Below are positions 26,943-35,839 of a stretch of 64,000 bases of DNA, piece after piece; within the stretch, counting starts at the first letter, position 1, and each line of letters opens with the position of its first letter. Source of the stretch: Escherichia coli (GTDB taxonomy: Bacteria > Pseudomonadota > Gammaproteobacteria > Enterobacterales > Enterobacteriaceae). The notes beneath the pieces were generated by a model that did no database searches, was not told where the DNA came from, and saw only the letters and a program-made list of their open reading frames with translations. The translations under genes and the position numbers were made by a program. The stretch lies in assembly GCF_003334335.1 (NCBI RefSeq), contig NZ_QOWQ01000004.1, one strand, 5' to 3'.

Positions 26943-27338
26943 ATGTGTGAAGGATATGTTGAAAAACCACTCTACTTGTTAATCGCCGAATGGATGATGG
27001 CTGAAAATCGGTGGGTGATAGCAAGAGAGATCTCTATTCATTTCGATATTGAACACAGCAAGGCGGTTAATACCCTGACTTATATTCTGTCGGAAGTCAC
27101 AGAAATAAGCTGCGAAGTTAAGATGATCCCTAATAAGCTGGAAGGGCGGGGATGCCAGTGTCAGCGACTGGTTAAAGTGGTCGATATCGATGAGCAAATT
27201 TACGCGCGCCTGCGCAATAACAGTCGGGAAAAATTAGTCGGCGTAAGAAAGACGCCGCGTATTCCTGCCGTTCCGCTCACGGAACTTAACCGCGAGCAGA
27301 AGTGGCAGATGATGTTGTCAAAGAGTATGCGTCGTTAA
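26943..27338 (+). CDS. caiF: Transcriptional activator of the cai/fix carnitine operons
   Basis: 131 aa from ATG at 26943 (MCEGYVEKPLYLLIAEWMMAENRWVIAREIS...); track start at 26838 is an overcall. Confidence 0.93.
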   Translation: MCEGYVEKPLYLLIAEWMMAENRWVIAREISIHFDIEHSKAVNTLTYILSEVTEISCEVKMIPNKLEGRGCQCQRLVKVVDIDEQIYARLRNNSREKLVGVRKTPRIPAVPLTELNREQKWQMMLSKSMRR

Positions 27339-33081: not shown

Positions 33082-34599
<1,518 letters not shown>

Positions 34600-34846
34600 T
34601 TAATTCCACTGTGAAAACGAATATTTATTTTGCGTTCCCGTTTGTTTTATTTTTGTTAACATTTAATATAATTATTATTAACCTCGTGGACGCGTTAATG
34701 GCTAACTCATAATGGGTATTCAATAAGCTGTATTCTGTGATTGGTATCACATTTTTGTTTCGGGTGAATAGAGGGCGTTTTTTCGTTAATTTTGATTAAT
34801 AATCAGTTTGTTATGCTCTATTGTGAGTAAAAAAATAACATCTGAC

Positions 34847-34977
34847 TTTCAATATTGGTGATCCATAAAACAATATTGAAAATTTCTTTTTGCTACGCCG
34901 TGTTTTCAATATTGGTGAGGAACTTAACAATATTGAAAGTTGGATTTATCTGCGTGTGACATTTTCAATATTGGTGA
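34847..34977. promoter_or_regulatory. cai/fix divergent control region with direct repeats carrying CAATATTG palindromes (probable CaiF/CRP target region)
   Basis: TTTCAATATTGGTGA at 34847, 34904 and 34963; ACAATATTGAAA at 34870 and 34927; lies between divergent caiT and fixA. Confidence 0.6.
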
Positions 34978-35068
34978 TTAAAGTTTTATTTCCAAATTAA
35001 AGGGCGTGATATCTGTAATTAACACCACCGATATGAACGACGTTTCCTTCATGATTTCTGGAGATGCA

Positions 35069-35839
35069 ATGAAGATTATTACTTGCTATAAGTGCGTGCC
35101 TGATGAACAGGATATTGCGGTCAATAATGCTGATGGTTCATTAGACTTCAGCAAAGCCGATGCCAAAATAAGCCAATACGATCTCAACGCTATTGAAGCG
35201 GCTTGCCAGCTAAAGCAACAGGCAGCAGAGGCGCAGGTGACAGCCTTAAGTGTGGGCGGTAAAGCCCTGACCAACGCCAAAGGGCGTAAAGATGTGTTAT
35301 CGCGCGGCCCGGATGAACTGATTGTGGTAATTGATGACCAGTTCGAGCAGGCACTGCCGCAACAAACGGCGAGCGCACTGGCTGCAGCCGCCCAGAAAGC
35401 AGGCTTTGATTTGATCCTCTGTGGCGATGGTTCTTCCGACCTTTATGCCCAGCAGGTTGGTTTGCTGGTAGGCGAAATCCTCAATATTCCGGCAGTTAAC
35501 GGCGTCAGCAAAATTATCTCCCTGACTGCAGATACCCTCACCGTTGAGCGCGAACTGGAAGATGAAACCGAAACCTTAAGCATTCCGCTGCCTGCGGTTG
35601 TTGCTGTTTCCACTGATATCAATTCCCCACAAATTCCTTCGATGAAAGCCATTCTCGGCGCGGCGAAAAAGCCCGTCCAGGTATGGTCGGCGGCGGATAT
35701 TGGTTTTAACGCAGAGGCAGCCTGGTCAGAACAACAGGTTGCCGCGCCGAAACAGCGCGAACGTCAGCGCATCGTGATTGAAGGCGACGGCGAAGAACAG
35801 ATCGCCGCATTTGCTGAAAATCTTCGCAAAGTCATTTAA
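35069..35839 (+). CDS. fixA: Electron transfer flavoprotein beta-subunit homolog FixA
   Basis: 256 aa from ATG at 35069 ([18 protein letters not shown]...); track start at 35006 is an overcall. Confidence 0.95.

What the first reader, a model, noticed from the sequence alone, without database searches (positions are those of the whole stretch)
34847..34977. Direct repeats with five CAATATTG palindromes in the caiT-fixA divergent control region
Seen in sequence: TTTCAATATTGGTGA occurs three times (34847, 34904, 34963; spacing 57 and 59 bp) and ACAATATTGAAA twice (34870, 34927). Each unit therefore carries two copies of the self-complementary core CAATATTG about 15 bp apart, roughly 90-220 bp upstream of fixA. 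This looks like an array of dimer-binding half-sites. The cai and fix operons are known to be co-activated by CaiF and CRP under anaerobiosis, so these repeats are candidate CaiF operators, though I cannot confirm the published footprint from memory.
Basis: partly seen in the sequence, partly recalled or inferred. Interest (0 to 1): 0.35.

Follow-up and report, generated by a model that had tools for sequence, protein, structure and literature searches.

The report
Known CaiF operators plus extra box
The repeats are the already published binding sites of the carnitine regulator CaiF between the E. coli cai and fix operons, so the finding is real but ordinary; the only fresh point is that the lone fifth copy, sitting inside the fix promoter, is the most widely conserved of them all.

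Summary
CAATATTG occurs five times in 131 bp (34850, 34871, 34907, 34928, 34966), and TTTCAATATTGGTGA three times (34847, 34904, 34963), far beyond chance.

Four of the five palindromes form two copies of TTTCAATATTG-N13-CAATATTGAAA (34847-34881 and 34904-34938). This is letter for letter the published CaiF operator (sites F1/F2, Buchet et al. 1999, as quoted in PMC12083890 and PMC3680233).

Comparison of 80 caiT loci adds detail:
- The boxes are present in all 55 intergenic regions of the clade that has caiF.
- They are absent from all 16 Shewanella/Ferrimonas regions, where no caiF was found.
- The number of full operators varies from 0 to 3: Proteus has 3, Escherichia, Citrobacter and Salmonella have 2, and Edwardsiella and Hafnia have 0.

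The fifth, partnerless box (34963-34977) lies 6 bp upstream of a conserved -10-like TTTTAT, inside the fix core promoter. It is retained in 54 of the 55 regions, including lineages with no full operator. I found no description of it in the searchable literature.

CaiF's homologue GrlA binds a promoter spacer, so a GrlA-like role for this box is plausible but untested. Overall interest is low.

The parts
34847..34881 (.). Full CaiF operator, distal to fixA: TTTCAATATTG-GTGATCCATAAAA-CAATATTGAAA. It is one of the published sites F1/F2; which of the two was not determined.
   Evidence: Perfect match to the published consensus (PMC12083890). Left box conservation is 0.96 and right box 0.99 across 25 sequences from several genera, against 0.62-0.64 for the DNA between sites.
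34904..34938 (.). Full CaiF operator, proximal to fixA: TTTCAATATTG-GTGAGGAACTTAA-CAATATTGAAA. It is the other of F1/F2.
   Evidence: Perfect match. It lies 165 bp from the fixA ATG in nearly every genus that has any full site, and an almost invariant 59 bp from the terminal box.
34963..34977 (+). Terminal 'orphan' left box TTTCAATATTGGTGA with no right-hand partner, inside the fix core promoter.
   Evidence: Identical to the left arm and GGTGA extension of both full sites. The sequence 13 bp downstream, TATTTCCAAAT, matches the right arm at only 4 of 11 positions (read). TTCAATATTGGTGA-N6-TWTWAT (TATTAC in Leminorella) is kept in 54 of 55 intergenic regions of the caiF-bearing clade.
34857..34872 (.). 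CRP-like site GGTGA-N6-AAACA nested in the spacer of the distal operator, centre 34864.5.
   Evidence: Read from the sequence: 3 mismatches to TGTGA-N6-TCACA. GTGA and the AA before CAAT are the conserved spacer positions. Its identity with published CRP site 3 (-126.5 of fix) rests on my memory of the Buchet 1998 abstract and was not verified with tools.
34914..34929 (.). CRP-like site GGTGA-N6-TAACA nested in the spacer of the proximal operator, centre 34921.5.
   Evidence: 2 mismatches to the CRP consensus. Such matches are not enriched in the window (15 found, 25.7 expected), so the sequence alone is weak evidence. Its identity with published CRP site 2 (-69.5 of fix) is from memory.
34736..34751 (.). 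Perfect CRP site TGTGATTGGTATCACA at the cai promoter.
   Evidence: The only zero-mismatch match in the window. PMC3105977 states that cai and fix are served by different CRP molecules. The position -41.5 of cai is from memory.
34984..34989 (+). -10-like hexamer TTTTAT, 6 bp downstream of the terminal box.
   Evidence: Conservation 1.0. It reads TTTTAT, TTTAAT or TATTAT at a fixed 6-bp distance from the box in all clades.
34956..34984 (+). Alternative sigma-70-like promoter GTGACA-17 bp-TAAAGT, whose 17-bp spacer is filled by the terminal box.
   Evidence: Consensus scan. It fits a fix start near 34991, which follows from remembered published positions. TAAAGT is not conserved outside the Escherichia group.
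33082..34596 (-). caiT, first gene of caiTABCDE.
   Evidence: 504-aa ORF. 67-99% identical to the caiT of the 80 loci.
35069..35839 (+). fixA, first gene of fixABCX.
   Evidence: ORF and translation MKIITCYKC.... Annotated as fixA in E. coli genomes.
26943..27338 (+). caiF, the regulator that binds the boxes.
   Evidence: 131-aa translation. Pfam CaiF_GrlA PF07180, E 2.1e-6.

Best explanation
The array is the CaiF-responsive operator region shared by the divergent caiTABCDE and fixABCX operons of E. coli.

Two full operators (34847-34881 and 34904-34938) each consist of two 11-bp arms, TTTCAATATTG and CAATATTGAAA, whose palindromic cores are 21 bp apart. That is two helical turns, so both arms face the same side of the DNA. 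Published work assigns these sites to CaiF, the small winged-helix activator that responds to carnitine through crotonobetainyl-CoA. Each operator's 13-bp spacer carries a CRP-like half-site pair (GTGA ... ACA), so CaiF and cAMP-CRP act on interleaved DNA. This much is known, or follows directly from the sequence.

The fifth palindrome (34963-34977) is a lone copy of the left arm, including its GGTGA extension. It lies 59 bp from the proximal operator and 6 bp upstream of a universally conserved -10-like hexamer, so it falls within the -35-to-spacer part of the fix core promoter. My inference is that it is a real CaiF contact point. I think it is probably the ancestral, minimal one, from which CaiF helps RNA polymerase at a promoter that lacks a good -35. 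This would resemble how CaiF's homologue GrlA acts from the spacer of the LEE1 P1 promoter.

On this view the upstream full operators are lineage-specific additions, present in 0 to 3 copies, that add affinity and CRP input.

Sub-probabilities: the four paired boxes are CaiF operators, about 0.95. The fifth box is a functional CaiF target, about 0.55.
For: Match to the literature:
- The published CaiF site sequence is matched exactly, twice (PMC12083890; PMC3680233).
- The fix promoter is the CaiF-responsive part used in carnitine biosensors.

Specificity:
- 140 of 141 matches with at most 1 mismatch to TTCAATATTGGTGA in 1.54 Mb of fetched loci lie in cai-fix intergenic regions.

Co-occurrence with the regulator:
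- All 55 caiT-fixA intergenic regions of the clade that has caiF carry at least one box.
- None of the 16 Shewanella/Ferrimonas regions, where tblastn found no caiF within 10 kb, carries one.

Conservation:
- Boxes score 0.96-0.99 against 0.62-0.64 for the DNA between them.
- Within E. coli the array is found at 95% identity or more in 5388 of 5426 genomes. The adjacent 131 bp is found in only 4663, mostly at 90-95%.

Fifth box:
- TTCAATATTGGTGA-N6-TWTWAT (TATTAC in Leminorella) is kept in 54 of 55 regions, with a mean of 0.09 mismatches over the 53 scored.
- It is kept in the nine loci (ten with Leminorella) that have no full operator, and it is perfect in Providencia, where the full sites have decayed by up to 6 mismatches.

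The protein side fits:
- The CaiF residues reported as needed for the response, Y11, N43, Y47 and R75, are invariant in 51 orthologues that are only about 50% identical overall (PMC12083890).

GrlA parallel:
- CaiF belongs to Pfam CaiF_GrlA.
- It aligns with O157 GrlA at 28% identity over residues 2-62, E 4e-8.
- GrlA is described as binding the 18-bp spacer of LEE1 P1 (PMC10877973).
Against: - The primary papers (Buchet 1998 and 1999) are not held. The footprints are known to me only through secondary quotation, and those quotations name two sites, not three. A lone half-site may simply not bind CaiF in vitro.
- The transcription start points and CRP positions are from my memory of an abstract, and an open TSS data set gave nothing. 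The placement of the fifth box 'between -35 and -10' therefore rests on a consensus scan and a conserved -10-like hexamer.
- In the Escherichia/Citrobacter group the whole fix leader is conserved (0.93). Conservation of the fifth box within that group is therefore not distinctive. The argument depends on the wider comparison.
- The LEE1 spacer (TTTAATGATAATGTATTT) shows no convincing sequence similarity to the box.
- CRP-like matches of this quality are not enriched in the window.
Confidence: 0.88

Rival explanations
1. The fifth box is conserved because it is core promoter DNA for RNA polymerase, or the site of another factor. Its identity to the operator arms then reflects common descent by tandem duplication, not CaiF binding.
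For: - It sits next to a conserved -10-like hexamer at a fixed distance.
- The published footprints, as quoted, list only two CaiF sites.
- Units 1 and 2 are a 51-nt direct repeat at 75% identity, which suggests duplication.
- An EPEC strain has lost exactly one unit by deletion between repeats.
Against: - A 14 of 14 match to the CaiF left arm is kept in lineages whose flanking DNA can no longer be aligned, and in lineages with no other box to recombine with.
- It is absent wherever no caiF was found.
- The sequence has no resemblance to a -35 hexamer.
Confidence: 0.3
2. The fifth box is a decaying relic, the truncated last unit of a tandem array, with no function.
For: It lacks the right arm. 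The copy number of the units varies between genera.
Against: It is the best conserved box of all: mean 0.09 mismatches, present in 54 of 55 regions. The right arm of the proximal full site averages 0.57 mismatches. A relic should decay first.
Confidence: 0.05
3. The inverted repeats act through nucleic-acid structure (cruciform, or an RNA hairpin such as an attenuator) rather than as protein sites.
For: As single-stranded DNA, 34840-34990 folds better than shuffles (-20.3 against -10.2 kcal/mol, z -3.98).
Against: - That result follows trivially from the inverted repeats.
- The stems are A+T-rich.
- No Rfam family matches.
- Right-arm variants CACTATTG and CATTATTG in Citrobacter and Pseudocitrobacter are not compensated in the left arm.
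- The array lies between the two divergent promoters, so it should not be transcribed. This last point is inferred from remembered start points.
Confidence: 0.02
4. The boxes bind a regulator other than CaiF.
For: I could not read the primary footprint data myself.
Against: Two independent papers quote the same sequence as the CaiF site. The boxes occur only with caiF and only at this locus.
Confidence: 0.03

Closest known systems
CaiF operators F1 and F2 of the E. coli cai-fix intergenic region (Buchet, Nasser, Eichler and Mandrand-Berthelot 1999, Mol Microbiol 34:562, as quoted in PMC12083890 and PMC3680233)
   Same: Identical sequence, TTTCAATATTG-N13-CAATATTGAAA, in two copies, at the same locus in the same species. 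Four of the five palindromes are these sites.
   Different: The fifth palindrome is outside both. It has only the left arm and lies in the fix core promoter. The quoted literature does not mention it.
GrlA at the LEE1 P1 promoter of enterohaemorrhagic E. coli (Islam et al. 2011, as described in PMC10877973 and PMC3130263)
   Same: The regulator is a homologue of CaiF: same Pfam family and 28% identity in the N-terminal DNA-binding part. Its target lies inside the promoter, between -35 and -10, which is where the fifth box appears to lie.
   Different: The LEE1 spacer sequence does not resemble the CaiF box. LEE1 P1 has a consensus -35 and an 18-bp spacer. Binding of CaiF to the fifth box has not been shown, and the fix start point was not verified here.
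MerR-type activators that bind the promoter spacer
   Same: An activator site centred near -25, at a promoter that is poor without the activator.
   Different: A different protein family. MerR sites are dyads in 19-20 bp spacers. Here there is a single asymmetric box and no evidence of DNA untwisting.
Promoters co-dependent on CRP and a specific activator (for example melAB with MelR, araBAD with AraC)
   Same: cAMP-CRP sites are interleaved with the sites of a pathway-specific activator, and both are needed for expression.
   Different: Here the CRP-like site sits inside the spacer of the activator's own dyad. That arrangement is repeated in each unit of the array.

Membership tests
CaiF operator (F1/F2 type) | Sequence TTTCAATATTG-N13-CAATATTGAAA | tested here: met
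   Two perfect copies, at 34847-34881 and 34904-34938; 0.00 expected by chance. The consensus is quoted in PMC12083890.
CaiF operator (F1/F2 type) | Located in the caiT-fixA divergent intergenic region | tested here: met
   caiT ends at 34596 on the minus strand and fixA starts at 35069 on the plus strand. E. coli annotation agrees.
CaiF operator (F1/F2 type) | Bound by CaiF protein (gel shift, DNase I footprint) | not testable with these tools
   Reported for E. coli according to secondary citations. The primary papers are not held.
CaiF operator (F1/F2 type) | Occurs together with caiF across genomes | tested here: met
   Boxes are present in all 55 intergenic regions of the caiF-bearing clade and in none of the 16 regions from clades where no caiF was found. 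These counts are not phylogenetically independent. Four loci scored as 'no caiF' (L001, L005, L009, L049) are truncated loci, not true absences.
CaiF operator (F1/F2 type), applied to the fifth box at 34963-34977 | Has a right arm 13 bp downstream | tested here: not met
   TATTTCCAAAT matches CAATATTGAAA at 4 of 11 positions. No genus has a partner there. The fifth box is therefore not a full operator of this type.
cAMP-CRP site | Match to TGTGA-N6-TCACA | tested here: inconclusive
   34736-34751 is perfect. 34914-34929 has 2 mismatches. 34857-34872 has 3 mismatches (read from the sequence). Matches with 2 mismatches or fewer are not enriched in the window (15 against 25.7 expected).
cAMP-CRP site | Footprinted by CRP at these positions | not testable with these tools
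   From memory of the Buchet 1998 abstract: three CRP sites, at -41.5 of cai, -69.5 of fix and -126.5 of fix, with start points 289 bp apart. The three centres 34743.5, 34921.5 and 34864.5 fit these numbers together if the starts are at 34702 and 34991. Not verified.
GrlA-like activator site in a promoter spacer | Regulator belongs to the CaiF/GrlA family | tested here: met
   Pfam PF07180. BLASTP of CaiF against GrlA gives E 4e-8.
GrlA-like activator site in a promoter spacer | Site lies between the -35 and -10 elements | tested here: inconclusive
   The box fills the spacer of the scanned promoter GTGACA-17-TAAAGT. It also ends 6 bp before the conserved TTTTAT. No start point could be confirmed with tools.
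GrlA-like activator site in a promoter spacer | Activation is bypassed by changing the spacer length | not testable with these tools
   Needs promoter mutants.
Structured RNA or DNA hairpin element | Pairing maintained by compensatory changes, or membership of a described RNA family | tested here: not met
   No Rfam match. Right-arm substitutions are not compensated in the left arm.
Dispersed repeat (REP or mobile element) | Copies at many loci | tested here: not met
   There are no other copies in the window. 140 of 141 copies in 1.54 Mb of loci lie at the cai-fix spacer.

The most novel reading that the evidence does not exclude
The lone fifth box, not the footprinted palindromic operators, is the ancestral and minimal CaiF target.

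On this reading, a single asymmetric TTCAATATTGGTGA placed 6 bp upstream of the -10 of the fix promoter lets CaiF activate from inside the core promoter, as its homologue GrlA does at LEE1. The upstream CaiF/CRP composite operators are then later tandem additions whose number (0 to 3) differs between genera. The same reading would explain an old deletion result, recalled from the Buchet 1998 abstract, that about 50 bp around the fix start are needed for cai transcription 289 bp away.
Probability: 0.4. Interest if true: 0.4.

Novelty: already known. Interest (0 to 1): 0.2.

Why it matters
As submitted, the finding rediscovers a regulatory region characterised in 1998-1999, so it does not change what is known.

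It has some practical value. The fix promoter with these boxes is the sensing part of current L-carnitine biosensors (PMC12083890). Three observations could guide promoter engineering:
- a fifth, promoter-embedded box exists;
- the number of operators varies naturally from 0 to 3;
- E. coli strains exist with one unit deleted.

If the fifth box is a true CaiF contact, CaiF and GrlA would share a way of activating from within the core promoter. That would be a modest but useful generalisation for this small protein family.

Tried and rejected
- **Primary papers.** Buchet 1998 (PMC107209) and Buchet 1999 (PubMed 10564497) are not held. I used secondary quotations and marked what comes from memory.
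- **Papers that gave nothing.** Kugler 2021 has no mention of CaiF or promoters. MotifAdjuster mentions caiF only for NarL. The FNR ChIP paper concerns the caiF promoter, not this region.
- **Start point of fix.** The supplements held for the Cappable-seq paper have no entry near the locus, so the start point remains unverified.
- **Literature search for the box.** A search for the box sequences found only PMC12083890 in a relevant context, and nothing for CAATATTGGTGA.
- **Rfam.** A scan of 34400-35300 gave no match.
- **Hairpin reading.** Rejected: the fold z-score follows trivially from the repeats, and the arms show no compensatory changes.
- **CRP consensus scan.** Matches are not enriched, so sequence alone cannot establish the nested CRP sites.
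- **LEE1 comparison.** Sequence similarity between the LEE1 P1 spacer and the CaiF box is weak. Only the positional analogy stands.
- **Autoregulation by CaiF.** Rejected: the only near match near caiF (TTTCGATATTG at 27041) is inside the coding sequence and stands alone.
- **Another regulator gene in the long Shewanella spacers.** None in L066. There is a porin-like ORF in the Ferrimonas locus L076. Not pursued.

Full report
**The observation**

- TTTCAATATTGGTGA starts at 34847, 34904 and 34963, with spacing of 57 and 59 bp.
- ACAATATTGAAA starts at 34870 and 34927.
- The self-complementary CAATATTG occurs five times in 131 bp.

This is well beyond chance.
- The whole 64-kb window has nine copies against 1.45 expected from shuffles.
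- In 200,000 order-1 Markov simulations of the A+T-rich 472-bp intergenic region, the mean was 0.026 copies and the maximum 2.

The array lies between caiT (33082-34596, minus strand) and fixA (35069-35839, plus strand), 222 to 92 bp upstream of the fixA start codon. The intergenic region is 100% identical to several E. coli chromosomes and is found in 5392 of 5426 complete E. coli genomes.

**Anatomy**

The first two units are each a perfect 11-bp inverted repeat with a 13-bp gap:
- TTTCAATATTG-GTGATCCATAAAA-CAATATTGAAA at 34847-34881;
- TTTCAATATTG-GTGAGGAACTTAA-CAATATTGAAA at 34904-34938.

The two cores of a unit start 21 bp apart, which is two helical turns. The third unit has only the left arm with its GGTGA extension (34963-34977). 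The DNA at the position of a right arm, TATTTCCAAAT, matches at 4 of 11 positions.

**What it is**

Two open-access papers quote the CaiF binding sites found by Buchet et al. (1999). [quoted passage not shown] The window holds exactly two matches to this 35-bp pattern, both perfect, against none expected. Four of the five palindromes are therefore the published CaiF operators.

- caiF itself is in the window at 26943-27338 and belongs to Pfam CaiF_GrlA.
- The same papers describe CaiF as the carnitine-pathway activator, activated through crotonobetainyl-CoA.
- They use the fix promoter as the sensing part of biosensors.
- They describe cAMP-CRP as a co-activator.

I could not read the two primary papers.

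**CRP sites and start points (partly from memory)**

I recall the following from the abstract of Buchet et al. 1998:
- the two start points are 289 bp apart;
- a perfect CRP site lies at -41.5 of cai;
- two further CRP sites lie at -69.5 and -126.5 of fix;
- a 50-bp region overlapping the fix start is needed for cai transcription.

This is memory, not a tool result. It does fit the sequence in one consistent way.
- The only perfect TGTGA-N6-TCACA in the window is at 34736-34751.
- GGTGA-N6-TAACA (34914-34929, 2 mismatches) is centred exactly in the spacer of the proximal operator.
- GGTGA-N6-AAACA (34857-34872, 3 mismatches, read from the sequence) is centred exactly in the spacer of the distal operator.
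- With starts at 34702 for cai and 34991 for fix, all three centres and the 289-bp distance agree.

Within the spacers, the conserved positions are GTGA and the As before the right arm. This is what nested CRP half-sites would require. By sequence statistics alone these weak CRP matches are not significant.

**Comparative evidence**

A scan of one genome per species with CaiT returned 80 loci. tblastn with CaiT, FixA and CaiF shows two groups.
- caiF lies within 10 kb in the Enterobacterales loci. Four exceptions are truncated loci.
- No caiF was found in the Shewanella, Ferrimonas, Campylobacter and related loci.

I extracted every divergent caiT-fixA spacer and scanned it. All 55 spacers of the caiF-bearing clade carry at least one box. 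None of the 16 Shewanella/Ferrimonas spacers does, although those are 0.57-1.9 kb long. These counts are not phylogenetically independent.

In 1.54 Mb of loci, 140 of 141 matches with at most one mismatch to TTCAATATTGGTGA lie in cai-fix spacers.

In a 25-sequence alignment of Escherichia, Citrobacter, Salmonella, Phytobacter and relatives, the boxes score 0.96-0.99 conservation. The DNA between operators scores 0.62-0.64.

Within E. coli, the array is found at 95% identity or more in 5388 genomes. The adjacent 131 bp is found in only 4663, mostly at 90-95%.

**Copy number varies between genera**

Counting full operators upstream of the terminal box:

| Full operators | Loci | Genera |
|---|---|---|
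| 3, at a strict 59-bp period | 8 | Proteus |
| 2 | 29 | Escherichia, Citrobacter, Salmonella, Phytobacter, Pseudocitrobacter, Intestinirhabdus; also Providencia, where they are degenerate |
| 1 | 7 | Yokenella, Atlantibacter, Pluralibacter, Trabulsiella and two unnamed Enterobacteriaceae |
| 0 | 9, or 10 with Leminorella | Edwardsiella, Hafnia, Limnobaculum, Budvicia, a Serratia sp. |

The step from the proximal operator to the terminal box is 59 bp, with a range of 59-61. The step between operators varies from 55 to 59 bp.

**The fifth box**

The lone box is the most widely kept element. TTCAATATTGGTGA, then 6 bp, then TTTTAT, TTTAAT or TATTAT (TATTAC in Leminorella), is present in 54 of 55 spacers. 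The mean is 0.09 mismatches over the 53 scored.
- It is kept in the lineages with no full operator, whose flanks cannot be aligned with E. coli.
- It is perfect in Providencia, where the full sites have accumulated up to six mismatches.
- Only Entomohabitans has lost it.

In E. coli the box ends 6 bp before TTTTAT (34984-34989; conservation 1.0). It also exactly fills the 17-bp spacer of the promoter-like GTGACA-17-TAAAGT found by the consensus scan. Whichever -10 is used, the box lies inside the fix core promoter, roughly at -32 to -15.

The sequences quoted from the literature do not include it, and a full-text search for CAATATTGGTGA found nothing relevant.

**How it most likely works**

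Known or shown: CaiF occupies the two palindromic operators, and CRP sites are interleaved with them.

Inferred: the fifth box is also a CaiF contact. Three points support this.
- Its 14-bp identity to the left arms is kept wherever CaiF exists.
- The CaiF residues reported as needed for the response (Y11, N43, Y47, R75) are invariant in 51 orthologues that are otherwise only about 50% identical.
- CaiF's homologue GrlA (28% identity over the N-terminal 61 residues) is described as activating LEE1 P1 by binding its 18-bp spacer (PMC10877973; PMC3130263). I confirmed the LEE1 P1 sequence TTGACA-TTTAATGATAATGTATTT-TACACA in O157 genomes.

The analogy with GrlA is positional only; the two spacer sequences are not convincingly alike.

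I put about 0.55 on the fifth box being a working CaiF target. About 0.3 goes on conservation for promoter reasons unrelated to CaiF, and the rest on minor alternatives.

**Rivals**

- **Structural (hairpin or cruciform) reading.** The single-strand fold z-score of -3.98 follows trivially from the repeats. No Rfam family matches. Right-arm substitutions in Citrobacter (CACTATTG, CATTATTG) are not compensated in the left arm.
- **Dispersed-repeat reading.** It fails on locus specificity.
- **Relic reading of the fifth box.** It fails because this box is better conserved than the operators.

**Verdict**

The feature is already known. The comparative picture and the conserved promoter-embedded fifth box are small additions worth a bench test, not a discovery.

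Noticed in passing
L082 560-780 (E. coli O127:H6, E2348/69 derivative, NZ_LT903847.1); corresponds to window 34904-34962: One 59-bp unit of the array is missing. The sequence runs from the distal operator straight into ...CGCCATGTTTTCAATATTGGTGATTAAAGTTTTATT. This is as expected from unequal recombination between the second and third direct repeats. The deletion removes the proximal operator's right arm, its CRP-like site and GTGACA. 27 E. coli records cover less than 80% of the array. I did not check how many share this deletion.
   Followed up: partly
window 34990-35068: The 79 bp between the presumed fix start and the fixA ATG are unusually conserved across genera (0.93). They include TGTAATTAAC (35013-35022), which resembles an ArcA box (from memory). 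A related TGnTAnTT block follows the -10 in Proteus, Yokenella and Edwardsiella. Function not examined.
   Followed up: no
L047 (Budvicia aquatica), cai-fix spacer, about 311-338 bp upstream of fixA: There are two tandem direct copies of the box with its -10-like element, TTTCAATATTGGTGATGAAGGTATTG and TTTTCAATATTGGTGATAGAGGTATTAT, 27 bp apart. This arrangement was not seen in any other genus.
   Followed up: no
L021, L043, L045-L048, L050-L052: In Leminorella, Limnobaculum, Edwardsiella, Budvicia and Hafnia, caiF lies on the fix side of the locus (beyond fixX), not next to caiE as in Escherichia and Proteus. The single box there sits 263-348 bp upstream of fixA, which implies a long leader or a different promoter layout.
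   Followed up: partly
L036 (Entomohabitans teleogrylli): This is the only locus of the caiF clade that lacks the terminal box. One full operator lies 225 bp from fixA, and the DNA 59 bp downstream of it is degenerate (TTCAGCGACGTCGGGTGA).
   Followed up: no
L045, L046, L048-L052 etc., cai side of the spacer: The distant group has a conserved AATAATCCGTGATCTTAATCAAA block in place of E. coli's perfect CRP site. It reads as well as an FNR site (TTGAT-N4-ATCAA, consensus from memory) as it does as a CRP site.
   Followed up: no
window 34769-34791 and 34998-35020: Direct repeat TAGAGGGCGTTTTTTCGTTAATT / TAAAGGGCGTGATATCTGTAATT at 74% identity. The upstream copy lies in poorly conserved DNA, so it is probably chance.
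   Followed up: partly
window 7692, 12320, 20320, 44324 and 27041: There are four isolated CAATATTG copies elsewhere in the window, and a one-mismatch TTTCGATATTG inside caiF. None has the flanking TTT/GGTGA or a partner arm. I take them as chance.
   Followed up: yes
CaiF residues 68-75 (window 27144-27167): The stretch GRGCQCQR is almost invariant in all 51 CaiF orthologues, and CQCQR is fully invariant. It is absent from GrlA. R75 is the residue whose alanine substitution abolishes the biosensor response (PMC12083890).
   Followed up: no
L058-L079 (Shewanella, Ferrimonas): Here caiT and fixA are still divergent neighbours, but the spacers are 0.57-1.9 kb long, no caiF was found, and there are no boxes. 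In L066 the 957-bp spacer has no ORF of 50 aa or more. In the Ferrimonas locus L076 it holds a porin-like 369-aa ORF. How these loci are regulated is unknown to me.
   Followed up: partly
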